Positions 267 to 38,242 of a DNA stretch of 64,000 nt are shown here, piece after piece. How positions within the stretch are numbered: the first letter of the stretch is position 1; the number at the start of each line of letters is the position of its first letter. The notes below the pieces were generated by a model, which had not been told where the DNA came from, ran no database searches, and was given only the letters and a program-made list of their open reading frames with translations. The DNA lies in contig MEOG01000073.1 in NCBI GenBank assembly GCA_001769125.1, forward strand, positions 14,834 through 78,833. Reading direction: 5' to 3'. The translations under genes were made by a program, and so were the position numbers. The DNA comes from Bacteroidetes bacterium GWF2_35_48 (lineage in GTDB: Bacteria; Bacteroidota; Bacteroidia; Bacteroidales; GWF2-35-48).

Positions 267-1340
267 ATGTCCGAAAGTTTAATTCTTGCGATAAATCCGG
301 GTTCCACTTCAACGAAGATTGCTGTTTTTCAAGATTCAAGATCAGTCTTCATGAAGAATTTATCACATAAAACAGAGGAGCTCTCAAAATTTAAAAAAAT
401 ATCAGAACAGTTTCAATTCCGGAAAGATATTATAATTGAAGAAATTGATTCAGCAGGTATCAGTCTTGATGCAATAAAAATTGTTGTTGGAAGGGGAGGG
501 CTTGTCAGACCTATTGAGTCTGGAGTGTATTCAGTGAATGAAAAGTTGAAAAAAGATTTGCTGAACAGTCCTTTCGGCGAGCATGCAAGCAATCTTGGCG
601 GGCTTATAGCCGACGACATTGCACGGTCATTAACAGAGGCACGAGCTTTTATTGTTGATCCGGTCGTTGTTGATGAACTGGACGATATTGCACGTATTTC
701 GGGTCATCCGCTATTAGAAAGGGTTTCAATTTTTCATGCATTGAATCAGAAAGCTGTTGCAAAGGCTCATGCAAAATCAATAATGAAGAAATATGAAGAC
801 CTGAATCTTATAGTTGTTCATTTAGGCGGAGGTATTTCTGTTGGAGCTCACAGGAAAGGCAAAGTTGTTGATGTGAATCAGGCCTTGGATGGCGATGGAC
901 CCTTTTCTCCTGAACGAAGCGGAACGCTGCCTGTTGGGGCTTTGGCACGACTATGTTTTAGTGGAAAATACACCAAAGAGCAGGTTGGAGAAATGATAAA
1001 GGGCGAAGGAGGAATGGTTGCGTATCTCGGGACAAACAGCGCTTATGAGGTAGAACAAAAAATGCTTGCCGGCGATAAAAAGGCAGGGTTTATTTTTGAA
1101 GCATTGGCTTATCAGGTTGCAAAAGAAATCGGGGCAATGTCATCGGTTTTGAAATGCGAAGTGGATGCGATATTAATTACCGGAGGCATTGCTTACAGCA
1201 AGTGGTGTGTTAATCAGATTATTGAAAGGGTTTATAAAATAGCCCCGGTACATGTGTATCCCGGCGAGGACGAAATGCAGGCACTTGCTATGGCGGGCTT
1301 GGCTGTGCTGAACAGAGAGATTGAACCTAGGGAGTATTGA
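267..1340 (+). CDS. buk: butyrate kinase
   Basis: 357 aa. The N-terminal ILAINPGSTSTKIAVF motif (ASKHA acetate/butyrate kinase fold), the length and the ptb neighbour are typical of Buk. Confidence 0.93.
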   Translation: MSESLILAINPGSTSTKIAVFQDSRSVFMKNLSHKTEELSKFKKISEQFQFRKDIIIEEIDSAGISLDAIKIVVGRGGLVRPIESGVYSVNEKLKKDLLNSPFGEHASNLGGLIADDIARSLTEARAFIVDPVVVDELDDIARISGHPLLERVSIFHALNQKAVAKAHAKSIMKKYEDLNLIVVHLGGGISVGAHRKGKVVDVNQALDGDGPFSPERSGTLPVGALARLCFSGKYTKEQVGEMIKGEGGMVAYLGTNSAYEVEQKMLAGDKKAGFIFEALAYQVAKEIGAMSSVLKCEVDAILITGGIAYSKWCVNQIIERVYKIAPVHVYPGEDEMQALAMAGLAVLNREIEPREY

Positions 1341-1360
1341 GGTCGGTGTCTTCGACTCCG

Positions 1361-1534
1361 CTCAGACACCGCATGTTGCGCTTAGACACCGCATGTTGCG
1401 CTTAGACACCGCATGTTGCGCTCAGACACCGCATGTTGCGCTCAGACACCGCATGTTGCGCTCAGACACCGCATGTTGCGCTCAGACACCGCATGTTGCG
1501 CTCAGACATCGCATGTTGCGCTCAGACATCGCAT
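1361..1534. repeat. tandem array of a 20-bp unit (CTCAGACACCGCATGTTGCG), about 8.7 head-to-tail copies
   Basis: Read directly. Units start at 1361, 1381, 1401 and so on. Units 2-3 carry C>T (CTTAGA) and units 8-9 carry ACATC. There are no spacers. The array sits between the buk stop and the LRR gene start. Confidence 0.95.
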
Positions 1535-1594
1535 TATTTTTTTACAATTATTAATTTTTTTCTTATTTTTGTTAAAAACAAACACAATATTATT

Positions 1595-2605
1595 ATGGGA
1601 ACATTCAACAAATCTGCTGTAAATGATTTTATCAAATGGGCTTCTAAAAAAGGAGTTAATTTACCTAAAGAACCCGAAAAGGTTTATGAGTTGCCGAAAT
1701 TAAATCTTAAATTAAAAGAAATTGATAAGCTTCCTTCGGAAATAGGCAGTCTACACAATCTCACAGAGCTGGATTTAAGCATGAATAAATTATCAAAGCT
1801 GCCTAAAGAAATTGAGAATCTTACGAATTTGAAAGTTCTGAATTTATCAAGAAATTTATTTAAGATTTTTCCTGATGAACTTGCTTTTCTTCGTTCTTTA
1901 GAAGAGCTTGAAATGGAGAGCAATCAAATGGAATCGCTTTCTTCAAAAATAGGAAAATTAAAAAATCTGAAAAAACTGAATTTATATTACAATCAGTTAA
2001 AAACCTTGCCCGAAGAAATAGGAATGCTCGTACATCTTAAAGAATTAAATTTAAGTGCGAACAATCTTGAAAAAGTACCATCAGCAGTATGCAATCTTGT
2101 TGATTTGGAAAAGTTAAATTTATGGTCGAACAAACTAACGGAACTTCCTCCTGAAATGGCTTATCTTGAAAAGTTAGAAGAGCTCAACATTTGGTCGAAT
2201 AAAATTTCCGATATTCCTGACGCAATTAAAAAACTTCCTAAACTGAAAGACCTAGATATTGCTGTAAATCATTCAAAGCTGAATCAAAAGTTAATTGAAG
2301 CAGTTTTAAAAGATGATGTCAAATTGGTAAAAGAATTGATTGCACATGGTGCTGATGTAAATTATAAATGGATGGCTTACGGCGATACAGATTTTACTAC
2401 TGCTTTATTTGAAGCAAAAGGTGTTGACATGATAAAATTATTATTGTCTCATAACGCGGATGTTCATGCAAAGAGGGAGAAAAAAGGAAGTGCGAGTATT
2501 CTTGTTTGGGAAAGCGATAATGCAGGAACAGGAAAACACGAGACTTTCCTTACAATGAAGCACTCTTTGGAAGTTACCAAATATTTGAAAACATTAAAGT
2601 TTTAA
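1595..2605 (+). CDS. leucine-rich-repeat protein with C-terminal ankyrin repeats
   Basis: The ATG at 1595 (MGTFNK...) is the first start downstream of the repeat array. There are about 8 LxxLxLxxNxL repeats (LTELDLSMNKLSKLP, LKVLNLSRNLF...), followed by ANK-like LIAHGADVN / LLLSHNADVHAK. The longer ORF-track start at 1433 only translates the tandem repeat. Confidence 0.85.
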   Translation: MGTFNKSAVNDFIKWASKKGVNLPKEPEKVYELPKLNLKLKEIDKLPSEIGSLHNLTELDLSMNKLSKLPKEIENLTNLKVLNLSRNLFKIFPDELAFLRSLEELEMESNQMESLSSKIGKLKNLKKLNLYYNQLKTLPEEIGMLVHLKELNLSANNLEKVPSAVCNLVDLEKLNLWSNKLTELPPEMAYLEKLEELNIWSNKISDIPDAIKKLPKLKDLDIAVNHSKLNQKLIEAVLKDDVKLVKELIAHGADVNYKWMAYGDTDFTTALFEAKGVDMIKLLLSHNADVHAKREKKGSASILVWESDNAGTGKHETFLTMKHSLEVTKYLKTLKF

Positions 2606-17381: not shown

Positions 17382-17461
17382 CAGTCGGGCAGTCTGAGAA
17401 GTCGTCAGTCAGGCAGTCAGGCAGTCAGGCAGTCGGCAGTCGGCAATCGGCAGTCGGCAAT
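17382..17461. repeat. short tandem array built on GGCAGTC (8-mer GCAGTCAG x3, then 7-mer GCAGTCG x4)
   Basis: Read directly: ...CAGTCAGGCAGTCAGGCAGTCAGGCAGTCGGCAGTCGGCAATCGGCAGTCGGCAA. It lies about 95 bp upstream of the S46 peptidase start. Confidence 0.9.
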
Positions 17462-33093: not shown

Positions 33094-33208
33094 GTTGCAG
33101 GTTGCAGGTTGCAGGTAGATTCGCTGATTGAGCCTGTCTCCCCTGCTTCCGTCGCAGTGGGCGAAGCCAGCTCCTGTCTGCTGCAACCTGCAACCTGCAA
33201 CCTGCAAC
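33094..33208. repeat. long inverted repeat made of heptamer arrays: (GTTGCAG)3 ... (CTGCAAC)4
   Basis: GTTGCAGGTTGCAGGTTGCAGG at 33094-33115 is complementary to CTGCAACCTGCAACCTGCAACCTGCAAC at 33181-33208. The ~65-nt GC-rich loop contains TTGAGCCTGTC. Confidence 0.85.
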
Positions 33209-33267: not shown

Positions 33268-35100
33268 TTATTGTTCTAAAAAATTCTCAAAAACCACTTG
33301 TATAAATGCTTTTCCTTTTTCTGAATCTTTTTCTGCTCCGGAGCCTGATTTTGTAATATAGCTTTTTGAAATGTGATCCCAGATAACTTTTGAACTATCT
33401 GTAAAAAATCCAAAGCCGTTGTTAAATGCGTAAAAAGAAAAAGATGGCGTGTTTTGTGTAAAAATATCTTTACTGTATTTGAATGAATCGCATTTTTCAT
33501 GAAGTTGCAAAAGTAGTGAATAAGCCAAATCTGTTTGTGATATATAGTTTGTGAAAACAGTATCTTTTTTATTTATTGCGCCACCGCAAATCAATAAAGG
33601 GATTCTGAAACTTTCCTCTGCAAAATGTCCTGAATTGCCCGGACGCAGGCTTCCATGATCTGCAACTAAAATTATAATTGTATTTTTCCACCAATTGGTT
33701 TTTTTTGCTTTTGCAATAAATGTCCCGAGTGCTTTGTCTGCGTAATAAACAGAGCTAAGATATTTGCTGTCATCGCCGCGGTTTGTAAAGTGATGCGGTT
33801 TCGGAATGTCAAAAGGATCGTGGCTGCTCAGCGTGAAAAATACTTTAAAAAATGGCTGTTTGGAAGATGCAATATCTTGAAATAATTTTTCAAAAACAAT
33901 ATGATCGTGTACGCCCCATTTTGCAGTATTCTCTTTTTTCTCAAAATCTGCTGATGATATTAATGTTTCAAATCCTGCTGTTAAAAGATACGATTTGATG
34001 TTTGCAAAATCGGGATTCCCTCCATAATAAAAAGAAGTGTGATACCCAAGTTGTTTCAGTTCTTTACTAAAAAAAGGTAGCTTTTGTGTTTTTCCGGGAT
34101 ATTGCATTACTGAAACGTTGGGCAGCGCAGGAAAACCACTGAGTAAAGCGGCAATTCCTTTGTCAGACCTGTCCCCGTTTGCAAAACAATTGCGGAACAA
34201 AATTCCTTCTTTAGCAAGCGCGTTGAAATTGGGAGTAATGCTGTCAAGTCCGCCTAAGGGTTTTATTACTTTTGCAGTAAAACTTTCAAGAATAATAAAA
34301 ACAATATTTGGTTTTTCGGTTGTAAAGATATTTGTTGTGCTGTCATTTTTTTGACACATTTTTGCGACAATTTTTTCTGCATCTTTATTTTTAAAAAACA
34401 GGTAATCATTTTTGATATTTTTTTGCTCAATTAAAGATTGTCCCACATTCCAGAAAAGATTTATGGTAGCATGATTTGTAAACATATTTTTACTGTGATA
34501 CGCCGCACTGATGTTAATCGGAACAATGCTCAGCCCTCCGCGCATCTGAATAAAACTCAATGCCGTTAATGCAAGAAAAAGCAGGGAAGCAGACCAATTT
34601 GTTTTTTGCAGATTTTTGATTTGTTTTCCTATAAGTTTTCTATATGAAAAATAACTAAGAGCAAACAGCACTGAACCTAAAATTATCTGACGAAGAATTG
34701 TAGTCCATGTAACCGATGCAAATGCCTCTCCCGGATTTCCGAGAAAGCGCAGAGGTGTACTATCCATGCGGAATTTCCAATGCGAATACAGTTCAAGATC
34801 GCTTATCAGCAATAAAATATTAATAAATAAAATCAGGATTACATAAACATTCATTATGTGATACAGAAATTTTGAATGTGTGTATGTTAAAAATGCAATG
34901 ATTAAACCTGTGAAAAGCATGAAGTAACCTGCGCTTGCGAAGTCAATTCTGAAACCGTAAACAAAAATTTTTATCCAGTCTGTGCCCGATTGCGCAAAAG
35001 CTTCCTGAAAATTGAAAAAAAGAAACAGAAGTTTGGACAACCAAAAAAAGCACAACCAGAAAAGAAGCAAAGAGAAATATATTTTTAAACGTGATTTCAT
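33268..35100 (-). CDS. LTA-synthase-family / sulfatase-domain membrane protein (phosphoglycerol- or phosphoethanolamine-transferase-like)
   Basis: 610 aa. About 5 N-terminal TMs, then an alkaline-phosphatase-superfamily domain (IILESFTA, LLSGFP, VADHGS). Confidence 0.8.
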   Translation of the reverse strand: MKSRLKIYFSLLLFWLCFFWLSKLLFLFFNFQEAFAQSGTDWIKIFVYGFRIDFASAGYFMLFTGLIIAFLTYTHSKFLYHIMNVYVILILFINILLLISDLELYSHWKFRMDSTPLRFLGNPGEAFASVTWTTILRQIILGSVLFALSYFSYRKLIGKQIKNLQKTNWSASLLFLALTALSFIQMRGGLSIVPINISAAYHSKNMFTNHATINLFWNVGQSLIEQKNIKNDYLFFKNKDAEKIVAKMCQKNDSTTNIFTTEKPNIVFIILESFTAKVIKPLGGLDSITPNFNALAKEGILFRNCFANGDRSDKGIAALLSGFPALPNVSVMQYPGKTQKLPFFSKELKQLGYHTSFYYGGNPDFANIKSYLLTAGFETLISSADFEKKENTAKWGVHDHIVFEKLFQDIASSKQPFFKVFFTLSSHDPFDIPKPHHFTNRGDDSKYLSSVYYADKALGTFIAKAKKTNWWKNTIIILVADHGSLRPGNSGHFAEESFRIPLLICGGAINKKDTVFTNYISQTDLAYSLLLQLHEKCDSFKYSKDIFTQNTPSFSFYAFNNGFGFFTDSSKVIWDHISKSYITKSGSGAEKDSEKGKAFIQVVFENFLEQ

Positions 35101-35208
35101 GTGTTTGCAAATATCAGAAAAAATATTGTCTGAAAATGGTTATTAATGAATAAAGAATGTATCTTTGATATAATTTAACTTATTATGCAAAATGTTTTGT
35201 TAAATCAT

Positions 35209-35446
35209 CGAAAGTCGGCAGTCGAAAGAGTCGGCAGTTGGCAGTTGGCAGTCTACAGTCTACAGTCGGCAGTCGGTATTTGGCAGTTGGCAGTCGGCAT
35301 TCAGCAGTCAAAGAGTCGGCAGTCGAAAGAGTCGGCAGTTGGCAGTTGGCAGTCTACAGTCGGCAGTCGGCAGTCGGTAGTTGGCAGTTGGCAGTCGGCA
35401 GTCGGCAGTCAAAGAGTCGGCAGACTGAGGACTGAGGACTGAGGAC
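35209..35446. repeat. 238-bp array of GGCAGTC/GGCAGTT heptamers with a ~101-bp higher-order repeat, ending in (ACTGAGG)3
   Basis: CGAAAGAGTCGGCAGTTGGCAGTTGGCAGTCTACAGTC occurs at 35223 and 35324. GCAGTCAAAGAGTCGGCAG occurs at 35304 and 35405. The array lies in the divergent promoter region between 35100 (-) and 35498 (+). Confidence 0.9.
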
Positions 35447-35497
35447 ATCAACAACATTTTACACAAATAGAACAACATTAATATATAAATTTGATTT

Positions 35498-38242
35498 ATG
35501 AAACAATATTTTTTTCTTTTACCTGCAATTTTACTAATCTCTTTGCAATCTGCAAAATCTCAGGTGTGGCCGGCAAGTCTTGCAGGACAATGGCAGTTTG
35601 ATGTGCTTTCAAATCCACTTCAGGCTACAGTGGGACAAAATCTTGTTTTGCATGGTTCTCATATAAATGTTTCCGGAACCGAACCAATGGATGGCGCTTA
35701 TGCAATCAGTACAGGTTCTTATTATGAGTGCCAGCATGGGATTGCTCCTAATGGCGGAGGAAGCGGAAGCTATGTGAATGAATATTCAATTCTTATTGAT
35801 TTTAAAATTCCGGATGCTACAGCCTGGCATTGCTTTTATCAGACCAATGCAGCCAATTCCAATGACGGTGAAATTTTCATGAATACTTATGGAAATATTG
35901 GTTTATCAACAACCGGTTATTCAGGGTTTGCGGTAATGCGAAATGTATGGCATCGTTTGCTTATCACAGTTGATCTTGGAAATTTTTTCAGATATTATTT
36001 AGATGGAAAACTTATTTGTGAAGCAACCAGTCAGAGCCTCGATGGGAGGTTTTCTTTAGATCCCACGCTTTTATTTTTTGCTGATGATAATGCTGAAGAT
36101 GGTGAAATTCATGTGTCCCAGATCGCTTTATTCAATACTGCATTATCAACACAGGAAGTGTTTGATTTAGGCGGTTTCAATGCTTCGCTCCTTCATCCTT
36201 ATTTGCAATCGCCCACACCGAATTCAATATACGTTTCATGGCTTTCCGCACAAACATCTTCAACTTTTATTCAGTATGGTTTAACAAATTCGCTTGGCTT
36301 ACTTGCTTCCGGAACCTATGAAGACATTTCGGGAAATTTATGGCACACTGTAAAATTAACAGGATTGCTCCCCGATACAACCTATTATTACCGTTGTATC
36401 AGCGGGAATGATACTTCTGTTGTTTATCCCTTTCAAACGCCACATCTGAACAGCACATCCGGCAAACATCTTCGTTTTGTTAAGCTTGGCGATTCTCAAA
36501 CACATTTCAATATTTCCAAACCATTAGCTGATTCCTTAAAATCAAAATTGATTGAATTGTATGGAACAAGCTGGTATAAAGAGGTGGATTGTATTATGCA
36601 TACAGGCGATATTGTTGGAGTTGGCTCTACTATTAATTCCTATCAGGCTGAATTTTTCAACACCTTTGCTGATCTTTCATGCTCTGTTCCTGTAATGATT
36701 TCTATAGGTAATCATGAAGAAGAAAGTGCAAATTTTTATAAATTCATGAAATATGAAGATTTCTCTGATTATTCAAGCCCTAATATTCTTAATGAAAAGT
36801 TTTATTCTTTCACATTAGGAAACGCTCAGTTTATTATTTTAAATTCAAATGGTCTATACAATACTACAGAGCAAACTACATGGCTGGGAAATAAACTGGC
36901 GGTTTCAGATGTAAATCCTGACATAGATTTTGTGTTTACTTTTTCTCACCAACCGGGACTGACAGAGCTGTGGCCTGATGGAAATACATCTTACGTCTGG
37001 AGTAATGTAATGGGAGCAATTGCGCAATATCCGAAAGCAACCATTCATTTTGGCGGGCATTCCCATTGTTATGAGCGGGGTTATTATTATGGAACAAGCA
37101 CCCAGAAGCGCGATTTCAGGACTGTTGTCAGCGGTGGGATGGGAGGTACGCTCGACCGTTGGGGCGATTATTCAAATCAGACCAATTATCAGACAACACA
37201 TCGTTCACTGGATCATTATAATTATGTAATAATTGATGTGGATATTGATTCAAAAAGTTACTCAGGTAAAACTTTTAGCATGGGGCATCCACAGAAGTCG
37301 CTTGCAAATGTGCTTGTAGATTTTTGGCATGGAAAAGCGAATCAGGCAGCCCCGGAAGCACCGCTGGCACTATATCCATATCTTTCAGCAAATACAGCAC
37401 CCGTGTTAATTGCTTCGCCTTTTTCAGGGCTTGATACACTTTTTTCTTCGCAATTTCAAATCAGCGCAAGCGAGGGGAATTGGTTGAATCCTGTTTTTAA
37501 TTCAATTCGCGATATGGAAAATTATTACGGTTCTACAGGAAATCCTGATTATTATCCTGTGGATATGAATACCAATATAGACATCCAACGTTGTGCTGTT
37601 ACAGCCGGATTGCTCACAAGTGGTACGACTTACTGGTGGCGTGTTCGTTATCGTGATAAAAATTTACGCTGGAGCAATTGGTCGCTTGATCAGGCTTTCA
37701 CTGTTGAACCAAATCTTGCTGATGCTGCTGATTTTACAGCAGATGTTACATCCGGAAATTTACCTCTGACAGTGCATTTTACTGATATTTCAAACAACAG
37801 CCCTCTCTCATGGGAGTGGGATTTTGATAATGATGGTGTCATTGACAGTTATGAGCAGGATCCTGTTTTTACGTACACAAGTCCCGGTTTGTATTCTGTT
37901 GCATTAACAAGTTATTTTTCCACACAAAATCTTACTGAAACGAAAACGAATTATATAAACGTGCTGCCTTCTAATGTAGATTTTAATAGCGAAAAAACTG
38001 ATTTTGTAATTTATCCGAACCCTGTTGATAAAATACTTATGCTTGATTTTATTTCAGATGAAATCGCAAAAGAAATTTCTATAAGCATATCTGATTTATC
38101 TGGTAGAAAAATATTAGAATTCACAAAATCGTGTTCAAATAAAGTTTTTCTCGATGTTTCAATGTTTGATTCCGGAATTTACATACTAAAAGTGCAGAAT
38201 GAAAATAAAGAATATAAAAGAATGATTTTTATTGTAAAGTAA
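35498..38242 (+). CDS. purple-acid-phosphatase-like metallophosphoesterase with N-terminal LamG-like region, PKD-like module and T9SS C-terminal domain
   Basis: GDSQ, HTGDIV, GNHE and GHSHCYERG metallophosphoesterase motifs. FN3-like PAP N-domain (SIYVSW...PDTTYYYRC). C-terminal IYPNPVDKILMLDF...GIYILKV. Confidence 0.8.
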   Translation: MKQYFFLLPAILLISLQSAKSQVWPASLAGQWQFDVLSNPLQATVGQNLVLHGSHINVSGTEPMDGAYAISTGSYYECQHGIAPNGGGSGSYVNEYSILIDFKIPDATAWHCFYQTNAANSNDGEIFMNTYGNIGLSTTGYSGFAVMRNVWHRLLITVDLGNFFRYYLDGKLICEATSQSLDGRFSLDPTLLFFADDNAEDGEIHVSQIALFNTALSTQEVFDLGGFNASLLHPYLQSPTPNSIYVSWLSAQTSSTFIQYGLTNSLGLLASGTYEDISGNLWHTVKLTGLLPDTTYYYRCISGNDTSVVYPFQTPHLNSTSGKHLRFVKLGDSQTHFNISKPLADSLKSKLIELYGTSWYKEVDCIMHTGDIVGVGSTINSYQAEFFNTFADLSCSVPVMISIGNHEEESANFYKFMKYEDFSDYSSPNILNEKFYSFTLGNAQFIILNSNGLYNTTEQTTWLGNKLAVSDVNPDIDFVFTFSHQPGLTELWPDGNTSYVWSNVMGAIAQYPKATIHFGGHSHCYERGYYYGTSTQKRDFRTVVSGGMGGTLDRWGDYSNQTNYQTTHRSLDHYNYVIIDVDIDSKSYSGKTFSMGHPQKSLANVLVDFWHGKANQAAPEAPLALYPYLSANTAPVLIASPFSGLDTLFSSQFQISASEGNWLNPVFNSIRDMENYYGSTGNPDYYPVDMNTNIDIQRCAVTAGLLTSGTTYWWRVRYRDKNLRWSNWSLDQAFTVEPNLADAADFTADVTSGNLPLTVHFTDISNNSPLSWEWDFDNDGVIDSYEQDPVFTYTSPGLYSVALTSYFSTQNLTETKTNYINVLPSNVDFNSEKTDFVIYPNPVDKILMLDFISDEIAKEISISISDLSGRKILEFTKSCSNKVFLDVSMFDSGIYILKVQNENKEYKRMIFIVK

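What the first reader, a model, noticed from the sequence alone, without database searches (positions are those of the whole stretch)
35209..35446. 238-bp (GGCAGTY)n heptamer array with ~101-bp higher-order repeat in a divergent promoter region
The array lies between the LTA-synthase-family gene (start 35100, minus strand) and the secreted metallophosphoesterase gene (start 35498, plus strand). It is built from GGCAGTC/GGCAGTT/CTACAGT heptamers.

Two long blocks recur with a 101-bp period: 35223 vs 35324, and 35304 vs 35405. A terminal (ACTGAGG)3 closes the array.

The location is not a terminator position, because both flanking genes start here. A 7-bp period is non-coding and prone to slippage. 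Possible roles are a variable promoter spacer, a protein-binding array, or a strand-biased (GGCAG-rich) DNA structural element.
Basis: seen in the sequence. Interest (0 to 1): 0.5.

Follow-up and report, generated by a model that had tools for sequence, protein, structure and literature searches.

The report
Intergenic heptamer-repeat hairpin element
The 238-bp run of 7-base repeats is real, but it is one of about 120 non-coding heptamer arrays lying between genes in this Bacteroidia-type genome: a known and still unexplained kind of bacterial repeat, not a dedicated switch for its two neighbouring genes.

Summary
Window 35209-35446 holds about 26 CAGTC-core heptamers. They include two 101-bp higher-order copies (96/101 identical) and end in (GACTGAG)3.

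It is not a local oddity. Period-7 arrays dominate this 5.98-Mb genome: 131 arrays, against 12 or fewer for each of periods 4-10. There are 61 clusters of the same CAGT/ACTG family, all intergenic.

- The CAGT arm always precedes the ACTG arm (20:0 here, 7:0 in unrelated phyla).
- The G-rich strand follows the direction of the flanking genes (39:5), not GC skew.
- Only the sense RNA folds strongly (-103 kcal/mol, z -6.8, against z -0.1).
- The orthologous gene in a same-genus genome has no array upstream.
- About an eighth of the arrays lie inside a conserved 26-nt palindrome pair found across the phylum. The focal locus keeps only weak remnants of it.

Best reading (0.6): a lineage-specific, slippage-grown member of the heptamer-armed hairpin repeats, probably transcribed. 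It matches the heptanucleotide long simple sequence repeats, TAACTGA arrays and convergent GGGAATC arrays of the literature.

No evidence supports a phase-variable promoter spacer. Length polymorphism could not be tested.

This scan has described the same class before, in this genome and in others.

The parts
33268..35100 (-). Left flanking gene, 610 aa, sulfatase / LTA-synthase-type fold. Its start codon faces the array.
   Evidence: ORF list. Pfam Sulfatase PF00884, E 1.1e-41.
35160..35167 (+). TATCTTTG, an exact match to the Bacteroidota -7 promoter motif TAnnTTTG, lying upstream of the array and pointing through it. If it is used, the whole array would be a 5' leader of about 330 nt.
   Evidence: About 0.5 such matches are expected by chance in this spacer, so this is only a lead.
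35166..35197 (-). Possible decayed left half of the conserved 26-nt palindrome (consensus ACAWTTTGCGTAACATCAGTTAATAA), facing outward.
   Evidence: nhmmer with a model of 36 family ends. The best hit in the spacer is 35197-35183 on the minus strand (AAACATTTTGCATAA), local E 0.018. It was not found in the genome-wide search at E<=10.
35209..35422 (+). G-rich arm of about 26 CAGTC-core heptamers (GGCAGTC, GGCAGTT, CTACAGT), punctuated by A-rich 8-9-mers (AGTCGAAAG, AGTCAAAG).
   Evidence: The same punctuated arm is seen at 13 other loci.
35213..35313 (+). Higher-order repeat, copy 1 (101 bp).
   Evidence: TRF period 101. 96/101 identical to copy 2.
35314..35414 (+). Higher-order repeat, copy 2 (101 bp): a recent segmental duplication inside the array.
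35423..35446 (+). Short inverted arm, (GACTGAG)x3.4. Its GACTG core is the reverse complement of CAGTC. It carries TGA in all three frames.
   Evidence: Arm order CAGT then ACTG in 20 of 20 two-armed clusters.
35449..35470 (+). Possible decayed right half of the 26-nt palindrome (CAACAACATTTTAC...), facing outward.
   Evidence: Second-best nhmmer hit in the spacer, 35449-35462 on the plus strand, local E 0.47. Weak.
35486..35493 (+). TAAATTTG, an exact -7-type box 4 nt before the start codon of the plus-strand gene. This is closer than the usual 20-29 nt.
   Evidence: Genome-wide distance histogram.
35498..38242 (+). Right flanking gene, 914 aa: a secreted metallophosphoesterase with PKD domain and T9SS C-terminal sorting domain.

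Best explanation
The array is the overgrown G-rich arm, plus a short inverted arm, of a heptamer-armed hairpin repeat. This is a non-coding, probably selfish or near-neutral kind of element that fills many intergenic spacers of this genome.

Shown:
- It belongs to a family of 61 CAGTC/GACTG-core clusters, within about 120 heptamer loci in the genome.
- The family has a fixed architecture: CAGTC arm, short junction, GACTG arm.
- Its orientation follows the neighbouring genes.

Inferred:
- The element arose in this lineage after the split from the same-genus relative.
- It grew by replication slippage of 7-bp units. One unequal exchange duplicated a 101-bp block.
- It is transcribed with, or towards, the downstream gene, so the G+U-rich sense RNA folds into a long imperfect hairpin.
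- Any effect on the two flanking genes (promoter spacing, leader structure, RNA stability) is a by-product, not a dedicated switch.
For: - Period-7 arrays dominate: 131, against 3, 1, 6, 7, 12 and 3 for periods 4, 5, 6, 8, 9 and 10. They merge into 123 loci covering 9.6 kb.
- Thirteen other loci show the same punctuated (AGTCGGC)n - CAG - (ACTGAGG/ACTGTAG)n layout.
- Arm order is CAGT then ACTG in 20:0 clusters here and 7:0 in Acidobacteriota, Devosia and other genomes. For other unit families in this genome the G-richer arm comes first at 8 of 8 loci.
- Orientation follows gene direction 39:5, p 1.4e-7, and 36:4 when only ORFs of 150 aa or more are used. It does not follow GC skew (28/54). 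It follows the gene in 14 of 15 cases where gene direction and skew disagree.
- The plus-strand RNA folds at -103.4 kcal/mol, z -6.8. The minus strand gives -50.2, z -0.1. Sense RNA is the more stable in 37 of 44 family members.
- The two higher-order copies are 96/101 identical.
- There is no array upstream of the ortholog in same-genus G002 (59% aa identity) or in G025.
- G002 has CAGTCGT/CAGTCAT arrays instead of CAGTCGG. Distribution is sporadic: 32 of 151 genomes of the order.
- Literature: heptamers are the commonest long simple sequence repeats, and TAACTGA arrays lie in forward orientation upstream of start codons (PMC4679880). Convergent G-rich heptamer pairs are mostly transcribed in Xanthomonas (PMC4692102).
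Against: - There are no transcript data, so transcription of the array is inferred only from the orientation bias.
- No population data are available, so slippage and length variation are not shown for this locus.
- The strict arm order (35:0 in all) is not predicted by plain polymerase slippage and hints at a more specific mechanism.
- The strong sense-strand bias could mean selection for a function rather than mere tolerance.
- Gene calls are my own crude longest-ORF calls.
- The genome is a 142-contig draft in which long arrays may be collapsed or missing.
Confidence: 0.6

Rival explanations
1. It is a functional cis-acting RNA element. The array is transcribed as a 5' leader or intercistronic segment, and its G.U-rich hairpin or its repeated ACUGA/CAGUC words act post-transcriptionally. 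They might bind a regulator (as proposed for TAACTGA arrays) or serve as an RNase III / exonuclease barrier that sets the stability of the neighbouring mRNA.
For: - Sense-strand orientation 39:5, with sense RNA more stable in 37 of 44 members.
- A tight median of 67 nt to the downstream start codon.
- A -7-type box at 35160-35167 points through the array.
- MacGregor proposed a post-transcriptional role for forward-oriented TAACTGA arrays (PMC4679880). Most Xanthomonas heptamer arrays are transcribed (PMC4692102).
Against: - The ortholog in the same genus has no array.
- Units, copy numbers and arm lengths differ freely between loci.
- The genus relative uses other units.
- There is no Rfam match.
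- Only 12 of 54 loci have an exact -7 box between array and start codon, which neither places the arrays in leaders nor excludes it.
Confidence: 0.2
2. It is a phase-variable promoter spacer (contingency locus). Gain or loss of 7-bp units or of the 101-bp block changes the geometry of the divergent promoters and switches the sulfatase-type and phosphoesterase genes.
For: The array lies between two divergent starts. A 7-bp period is prone to slippage, and the 101-bp duplication shows recent length change.
Against: - The array lies outside the candidate core promoter. It ends at 35446 and the -7 box is at 35486-35493.
- 44 of 61 family clusters are between co-directional genes and only 15 are between divergent ones.
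- About 120 loci next to unrelated genes argue against a dedicated switch.
- The array is absent at the orthologous gene.
Confidence: 0.07
3. It is a DNA-level structural or protein-binding array. The repeated CAGTC words would be iteron-like sites for a DNA-binding or nucleoid protein, or the GG tracts would form a two-tetrad G-quadruplex or slipped structure that affects replication or transcription.
For: The words are regularly repeated. The plus DNA strand folds somewhat better than shuffles (-33.8 kcal/mol, z -2.6), while the minus strand does not (z +0.7). G-rich heptamers of Xanthomonas and Nostoc form G4 in vitro (PMC4692102).
Against: - The units have GG, not the GGG/GGGG tracts of the G4-forming repeats.
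- The inverted arm is only 24 bp with 5 of 7 complementarity, so a cruciform is weak.
- Orientation follows transcription, not replication.
- A 7-bp period is out of phase with the helix.
- No candidate binding protein was found.
Confidence: 0.05
4. It is the interior of a true miniature transposon (MITE) bounded by the 26-nt inverted repeats. The transposon inserted here as a unit and brought the array with it.
For: - The halves form a conserved pair: 68 halves against 4 in the control, and 19 outward-facing pairs against 0 inward.
- Heptamer runs lie on the inner side of 33 of 73 halves and on the outer side of 1.
- The family is patchily present in 18/151 genomes of the order and 21/301 of the phylum.
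- Halves often abut stop codons.
- Weak remnants flank the focal array in the right places and orientations.
- BrickBuilt of Porphyromonas gingivalis is a precedent for a minisatellite inside a MITE (PMC4596501).
Against: - Only 16 of 123 heptamer loci have a half within 150 bp.
- The focal remnants are weak (local E 0.018 and 0.47) and invisible genome-wide.
- No target-site duplication or empty site could be shown.
- In other genomes the same halves enclose quite different cargo or nothing.
- In one genome they enclose an IS110-family transposase. From my own knowledge, that family tends to insert into extragenic palindromes, so the pair looks more like a REP-like landing pad than a transposon's own ends.
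Confidence: 0.08

Closest known systems
Heptanucleotide long simple sequence repeats (LSSR) of prokaryotes (Mrazek et al. 2007, as summarised in PMC4679880)
   Same: Tandem 7-nt units, far more abundant than other periods in the same genome, mostly intergenic, with a sporadic phylogenetic distribution. Polymerase slippage is the proposed cause.
   Different: Here the arrays have a fixed two-armed inverted architecture, a conserved 5-nt core (CAGTC/GACTG) with variable 2-nt spacers, and a strong sense-strand bias. Those features are not part of the LSSR description.
TAACTGA heptamer arrays of Beggiatoaceae, Cyanobacteria and some Bacteroidetes (MacGregor 2015, PMC4679880)
   Same: An ACTGA-containing heptamer, intergenic, in forward orientation upstream of start codons. 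Long mixed heptamer arrays occur in Bacteroidetes and are absent at the same site in close relatives. This genome also holds (TAACTGA)n-type runs (C96 13775).
   Different: The focal units are GGCAGTC and GACTGAG, not TAACTGA. The arrays sit a median of 67 nt from the start, not a few nt. The arrays are much longer and paired with an inverted arm.
GGGAATC / GGGGAYT G-rich heptamer arrays of Xanthomonas and Nostoc, with convergent pairs (Rehm et al. 2015, PMC4692102)
   Same: Heptamer arrays over-represented between co-directional genes. There are 70-75 pairs in convergent orientation (G-rich array first on each strand), the same arm order as here. Most are transcribed. They are not conserved between related species.
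   Different: Those units have GGG/GGGG tracts and form G-quadruplexes, with a preference for four units. Here the tracts are only GG and both arms are G>C on the same strand.
STRR (short tandemly repeated repetitive) heptamers of heterocystous cyanobacteria (Mazel et al. 1990; from my own knowledge, not read here)
   Same: Dispersed intergenic heptamer arrays. Two of the three classical units (CCCCAGT, CAACAGT) share the CAGT core seen here. A (CAACAGT)n run exists in this genome (C96 127044).
   Different: A different phylum. An inverted-arm architecture and a palindrome frame are not described for STRR, to my knowledge.
BrickBuilt, a MITE of Porphyromonas gingivalis that contains a minisatellite (Klein et al. 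2015, PMC4596501)
   Same: Bacteroidia. An intergenic multi-copy element with small inverted-repeat ends and an internal tandem array of variable length. It lies tens to hundreds of nt from neighbouring genes.
   Different: Its unit is 23 nt and in direct orientation only. Promoter activity was shown there and not here. There is no sequence similarity. At the focal locus the end repeats are barely recognisable.
REP/BIME elements and Neisseria Correia elements (from my own knowledge)
   Same: Short palindromic intergenic repeats, transcribed as hairpins with neighbouring genes, sometimes targets of IS110-type insertion or RNase III.
   Different: The Y1/RAYT genes of this genome are flanked by their own, different REP-like repeats, with no heptamer runs within 1 kb. 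REPs are single hairpins, not arrays of 7-nt units.

Membership tests
Intergenic heptanucleotide LSSR / STRR-type arrays | Head-to-tail tandem copies of a 7-nt unit | tested here: met
   TRF gives period 7 x 25.6 copies at 35229-35410 and x 3.4 at 35423-35446.
Intergenic heptanucleotide LSSR / STRR-type arrays | Period 7 over-represented in the same genome relative to other periods | tested here: met
   131 arrays of period 7, against 3, 1, 6, 7, 12 and 3 for periods 4, 5, 6, 8, 9 and 10 under the same criterion.
Intergenic heptanucleotide LSSR / STRR-type arrays | Located outside coding sequence | tested here: met
   All 61 CAGT-family clusters are intergenic once 7 short ORF calls that overlap arrays are set aside. 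Those ORFs are 84-190 aa, and 5-83% of their length lies in strict period-7 runs. The ORF across the focal array has no Pfam match.
Intergenic heptanucleotide LSSR / STRR-type arrays | Copy number varies between strains | not testable with these tools
The metagenome scan found no relative above 39% identity. The only indirect signs are a 96/101-identical internal duplication and absence at the ortholog.
Convergent (G-rich arm first) heptamer pairs, as in Xanthomonas | Two arrays of reverse-complementary core close together, with the G-rich array 5' on each strand | tested here: met
   Focal locus: CAGTC arm at 35209-35422, then GACTG arm at 35423-35446. Family: 20:0. Other phyla: 7:0. The focal second arm matches only the 5-nt core, not the spacer.
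G-quadruplex-forming heptamer repeats (GGGNATC type) | Four or more tracts of at least three G | tested here: not met
   The units GGCAGTC and GGCAGTT carry GG only.
MITE | Terminal inverted repeats at both ends | tested here: inconclusive
   The family-level pair is clear (19 outward pairs against 0 inward). At the focal locus only partial matches exist, with local E 0.018 and 0.47.
MITE | Target-site duplication and empty sites | tested here: inconclusive
   Conservation stops right after ...CAGTTAATAA. TTAA lies inside both ends, but no empty site was available for comparison.
MITE | A related autonomous element with a transposase and the same ends | tested here: not met
   No pair of halves 1.5-10 kb apart around a transposase was found in this genome. 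The one case found elsewhere encloses an IS110-family gene. From my own knowledge, that family has no such terminal repeats of its own.
Phase-variable promoter SSR (contingency locus) | Repeat lies between the promoter elements, or in the 5' coding region, of the gene it controls | tested here: not met
   The array ends at 35446. The only nearby -7-type box is at 35486-35493 and the start codon is at 35498. The array does not enter either ORF.
REP / REPIN with RAYT | Repeats flank or accompany a Y1 (RAYT) transposase gene | tested here: not met
   At least six Y1_Tnp genes are present. Each is flanked by other hairpin repeats, with no heptamer run within 1 kb.
Heptamer-armed cassettes carrying a 23S_rRNA_IVP (PF05635) four-helix-bundle gene (class proposed by earlier notes of this scan) | A PF05635 gene between inverted short-period arrays | tested here: not met
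   The focal element carries no such gene. In this genome 6 PF05635 genes exist, and at least 3 (C10, C30, C135) lie between inverted arrays of other units. The class is therefore present in the genome, but the focal element would at most be an empty relative.

The most novel reading that the evidence does not exclude
The heptamer arms are not made by ordinary polymerase slippage. They would be made by a dedicated process that adds or copies CAGTC-type units onto 3' ends at a break or hairpin tip. This would resemble a telomere-to-telomere fusion, where both G-rich strands point 5'->3' at the junction. The process may be linked to the four-helix-bundle (PF05635, Avd-like) genes that sit between such arms.

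The footprint would be threefold: the strict 'G-rich/CAGTC arm first' order (35:0 across this genome and unrelated phyla), the onion-like nesting of arm pairs, and their preference for the centre of a conserved palindrome.
Probability: 0.12. Interest if true: 0.8.

Novelty: new member of a known kind. Interest (0 to 1): 0.35.

Why it matters
Heptamer arrays are the commonest long simple repeats of bacteria. They have been noted since 1990 without an accepted origin or function.

This locus adds nothing categorically new on its own. The family it belongs to, however, gives unusually clean regularities that any explanation must meet:
- a conserved 5-nt palindromic core;
- an arm order that never reverses;
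- orientation tied to transcription and not to replication;
- species-specific units within one genus;
- frequent nesting inside a phylum-wide 26-nt palindrome.

For annotation, such arrays create spurious ORFs (85 aa here). They should not be read as promoter switches of whichever genes happen to flank them.

Tried and rejected
- **Length polymorphism.** A metagenome scan with the phosphoesterase found nothing above 39% identity. Megablast of Bacteroidetes loci holding (GGCAGTC)4 against this genome found nothing. No test was possible.
- **Coding.** The 85-aa ORF across the array has no Pfam family. Rejected.
- **Known RNA family.** Rfam gave nothing for the focal spacer and only sub-threshold miRNA-type noise for eight family elements and two minimal palindromes.
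- **RAYT/REP link.** The Y1 transposases have their own REP-like repeats. Rejected.
- **IS110 link in this genome.** The single IS110 gene (contig C40) is not near the palindrome or the arrays.
- **Palindrome half as a -33 box.** The idea was that the half supplies a -33 TTTG for an outward hybrid promoter. Only 8-9 of 68 halves have a -7-type box at 18-20 nt. Not general.
- **Intrinsic terminator.** The arms are followed by A-runs rather than T-runs, and arrays are depleted between convergent genes. Rejected as a general role.
- **Replication-strand bias.** Orientation is unrelated to the sign of local GC skew.
- **Sense-strand bias for all heptamer families together.** Weak (54:39), because most other families occur as balanced inverted pairs. 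The strong bias holds for the CAGT family.
- **Plasmid and phage collections.** No match to the minimal palindrome.

Full report
**1. The observation**

Tandem Repeats Finder gives three rows:
- a period-7 array at 35229-35410, 25.6 copies, consensus AGTCGGC;
- a period-101 repeat at 35213-35423, 2.1 copies, 95% matches;
- a perfect (GACTGAG)x3.4 at 35423-35446.

The two higher-order copies are 35213-35313 and 35314-35414, and 96 of 101 bases agree. Each copy consists of twelve heptamers plus a 9-mer (AGTCGAAAG) and an 8-mer (AGTCAAAG). This explains the odd period.

The flanking ORFs start at 35100 (minus strand; Pfam Sulfatase, 1.1e-41) and at 35498 (plus strand; Metallophos, Pur_ac_phosph_N, PKD and the T9SS sorting domain). 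The 85-aa ORF that the array opens has no family.

Its GACTG core is the reverse complement of the CAGTC core of the long array, so the element has two inverted arms of very unequal length.

**2. It is one of many**

The window lies in a 5.98-Mb draft genome of 142 contigs and 34.8% G+C. The T9SS tail and a sharp peak of the TAnnTTTG -7 motif 20-29 nt before start codons fit a Bacteroidota genome.

With one criterion applied to all periods, period 7 gives 131 arrays. Periods 4, 5, 6, 8, 9 and 10 give 3, 1, 6, 7, 12 and 3. Merged, there are 123 heptamer loci covering 9.6 kb, with many unit families: GCAGGTT, GACTGTA, GGCAGTC, AATTAGG, AAGGATT, GGAAGTT and others.

Thirteen other loci show the same layout as the focal one. 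It runs: (AGTCGGC)n broken by A-rich 8-9-mers, a short junction that often ends in CAG, then (ACTGAGG) or (ACTGTAG)n.

The window itself holds further examples at 17382-17461 and 33094-33208.

**3. Regularities of the CAGT/ACTG family**

I found 98 arms of three or more units, grouped into 61 clusters. Where both arm types occur together, the CAGT arm always comes first: 20 clusters against 0. This order reads the same on either strand.

The same holds in loci fetched from unrelated phyla with the pattern (GGCAGTC)4: 7 against 0. It also holds for inverted pairs of other units in this genome, where the G-richer arm is first at 8 of 8 loci, leaving aside one tandem cluster. Rehm et al. reported the same 'convergent' arrangement for 70-75 GGGAATC pairs in Xanthomonas (PMC4692102).

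In this genome both arms are G>C on the same strand (spacers GG on one arm; TA, AG or AA on the other). That gives each element a polarity.
- Between co-directional genes the G-rich strand is the sense strand in 39 of 44 cases (p 1.4e-7). The count is 36:4 when only ORFs of 150 aa or more are used.
- Polarity is unrelated to local GC skew (28 of 54). It follows the genes in 14 of 15 cases where the two disagree.
- Clusters are depleted between convergent genes (2 against 9.1 expected by length, p 0.006).
- They lie a median of 67 nt from the downstream start and 87 nt from the upstream stop.

**4. Structure**

As RNA, the plus strand of 35195-35500 folds at -103.4 kcal/mol, with z -6.8 against shuffles. 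The minus strand reaches -50.2, with z -0.1.

The reason is that GGCAGUC pairs with itself through G.U pairs in 6 of 7 positions, while GACUGCC cannot. Across the family, the sense RNA is the more stable in 37 of 44 co-directional clusters (p 4.8e-6).

As DNA the asymmetry is modest (z -2.6 against +0.7). The 24-bp inverted arm matches the long arm only in the 5-nt core, so a cruciform is unlikely to matter.

**5. Evolutionary lability**

The closest genomes available are two of the same genus.
- G002 encodes the phosphoesterase ortholog (59% identity) behind a 160-bp spacer with no repeat. Its upstream neighbour is a different gene.
- G025 (47% identity) has no array either.
- G002 does have CAGT-core arrays, but mostly of CAGTCGT and CAGTCAT units rather than CAGTCGG.
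- The fragmented G001 assembly shows none.

Across the order, 32 of 151 sampled genomes have arrays of at least five CAGT-core units. This genome has the most matches by far.

So the core is shared, while the units and the sites turn over quickly.

**6. A conserved palindrome around some arrays**

Looking for promoter motifs downstream of the arrays, I saw a recurring word, AAAAAA-ACATTTTGCGTAACATAAGTTAATAA.

Genome-wide there are 68 copies with at most 6 of 26 mismatches, against 4 for the reversed pattern. They form 19 outward-facing pairs 69-308 bp long, and no inward-facing pair.

The elements are nested palindromes. From outside to inside they hold: the 26-nt half, GGAAGTC-type arms, CAGTC-type arms, a junction, and then the mirror image.

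Heptamer runs lie on the inner side of 33 of 73 halves and on the outer side of one. But only 16 of 123 heptamer loci have a half within 150 bp (2.15 expected at random).

The same halves, almost unchanged, occur in 18 of 151 genomes of the order and in 21 of 301 of the phylum. One genome has up to 66 matches to the 22-nt word, both strands counted.

In those genomes the halves enclose nothing (58-bp minimal forms) or quite different GC-rich cargo. In one genome they enclose an IS110-family transposase gene. Outer ends often overlap the stop codon of the upstream gene.

I read the pair as a REP-like palindrome whose centre attracts insertions, rather than as proven transposon ends.

At the focal locus the two best matches to a model of the halves fall just outside the array and face outward: 35197-35183 (local E 0.018) and 35449-35462 (E 0.47). 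They are partial and are not detectable genome-wide. This is a lead and not a finding.

**7. Links tested**

- Earlier notes of this scan tie heptamer arms to small four-helix-bundle genes (PF05635). This genome has six such genes. At least three lie between inverted short-period arrays, G-rich arm upstream. None uses CAGTC units, and the focal element has no gene.
- Y1/RAYT transposases are present but are flanked by their own hairpin repeats.
- There is no Rfam family and no plasmid or phage match.

**8. What it most likely is and does**

The array is a lineage-specific member of the heptamer-armed hairpin repeats. It grew by 7-bp slippage and by one recent 101-bp duplication.

Its polarity, like that of its relatives, follows the downstream gene. 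The simplest explanation is that these spacers are transcribed and that only the G+U-rich orientation is tolerated or favoured in RNA.

Whether the array lies in a leader is open. A -7-type box at 35160-35167 would place it in a leader. The box at 35486-35493 would place it upstream of the promoter.

I give 0.6 to the passenger reading, 0.2 to a functional RNA element, and less than 0.1 each to a phase-variable spacer, a DNA-binding array and a true MITE.

The strict arm order is not explained by slippage and keeps a more specific origin alive (novel case, 0.12).

**9. Comparison and novelty**

The class is known:
- heptanucleotide long simple sequence repeats (Mrazek 2007, via PMC4679880);
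- TAACTGA arrays in forward orientation before start codons, including long mixed arrays in Bacteroidetes that are missing from close relatives (PMC4679880);
- convergent G-rich heptamer pairs that are mostly transcribed (PMC4692102);
- a minisatellite inside a MITE in Porphyromonas (PMC4596501).

This scan has described the same class before, in this genome (e1-5260762, e1-3982421) and in others.

The focal array is therefore a new member of a known kind. The quantified polarity rule and the phylum-wide palindrome frame are the useful additions.

**Limits**

- Gene calls are my own longest-ORF calls.
- The assembly is a draft.
- No transcript or population data were available.

Noticed in passing
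G000 contigs, e.g. C81:15942-16128, C46:85165-85308, C88:158330-158407 (loci L149, L151, L152); also L163, L164 in other genomes: A conserved 26-nt palindrome pair, TTATTAACTGATGTTACGCAAAWTGT ... ACAWTTTGCGTAACATCAGTTAATAA. It has 68 halves here. It is present almost unchanged in 18/151 genomes of the order and 21/301 of the phylum. Minimal forms are 58-78 bp. Its centre holds heptamer arms, other GC-rich hairpins or nothing, and its outer ends often overlap the upstream gene's stop codon. There is no Rfam, plasmid or phage match.
   Followed up: partly
L258 (G373:C4:36150-38150), ORF 555-1661 minus strand: In another genome of the phylum, the two halves of that palindrome enclose a 368-aa IS110-family transposase (DEDD_Tnp_IS110 + Transposase_20). 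This suggests the palindrome is an IS110 target site.
   Followed up: partly
window 33094-33208: (GTTGCAG)3 and (CTGCAAC)4 form inverted heptamer arms around a 64-nt GC-rich centre, between two co-directional minus-strand genes. The G-rich arm comes first, as in the family rule.
   Followed up: partly
window 17382-17461: A second CAGTC-core array, with mixed 7- and 8-nt units CAGTCGG and CAGTCAGG. It lies about 30 nt after a stop codon and about 95 nt before the next start.
   Followed up: no
window 1359-1534: 8.8 tandem copies of a 20-mer (CGCTCAGACACCGCATGTTG, 98% matches). The array starts right after a stop codon and fills the spacer to the next gene.
   Followed up: no
G000 C135:12793-13101 and flanks (L250); CRISPR arrays at C135:4854-8014: A PF05635 four-helix-bundle gene lies between long inverted arrays (GATAGATTGAG-type upstream, CTCAATCCC-type downstream). 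It sits next to a Cas2-like ORF and near CRISPR arrays with repeat ATTTCAATTCCACTATGGGACGATTAAAAG.
   Followed up: no
G000 C105:89969-90313, C82:73145-73489, C88:50316-50660, C140:38812-39156, C64:90364-90705: Five similar Y1 (IS200/RAYT-like) transposase genes of about 155 aa. Each is flanked by its own family of hairpin repeats, for example about ten tandem copies of GGTGCAACCGATGGCATATAATC after the C105 gene. These look like REPtron-type units.
   Followed up: partly
G000 genome-wide: Period-11 tandem arrays are the second most common class (35 loci under the same criterion). I did not examine them.
   Followed up: no
Genome-contig loci L019-L138: Exact (GGCAGTC)4 occurs in more than 120 stretches from very different phyla, including Acidobacteriota, Planctomycetota, Streptomyces, Mesorhizobium, Cyanobacteria and a halobacterial archaeon. 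It is often paired with an inverted (GACTGCC)n arm. No control heptamer was run, so enrichment of this particular unit is not shown.
   Followed up: partly
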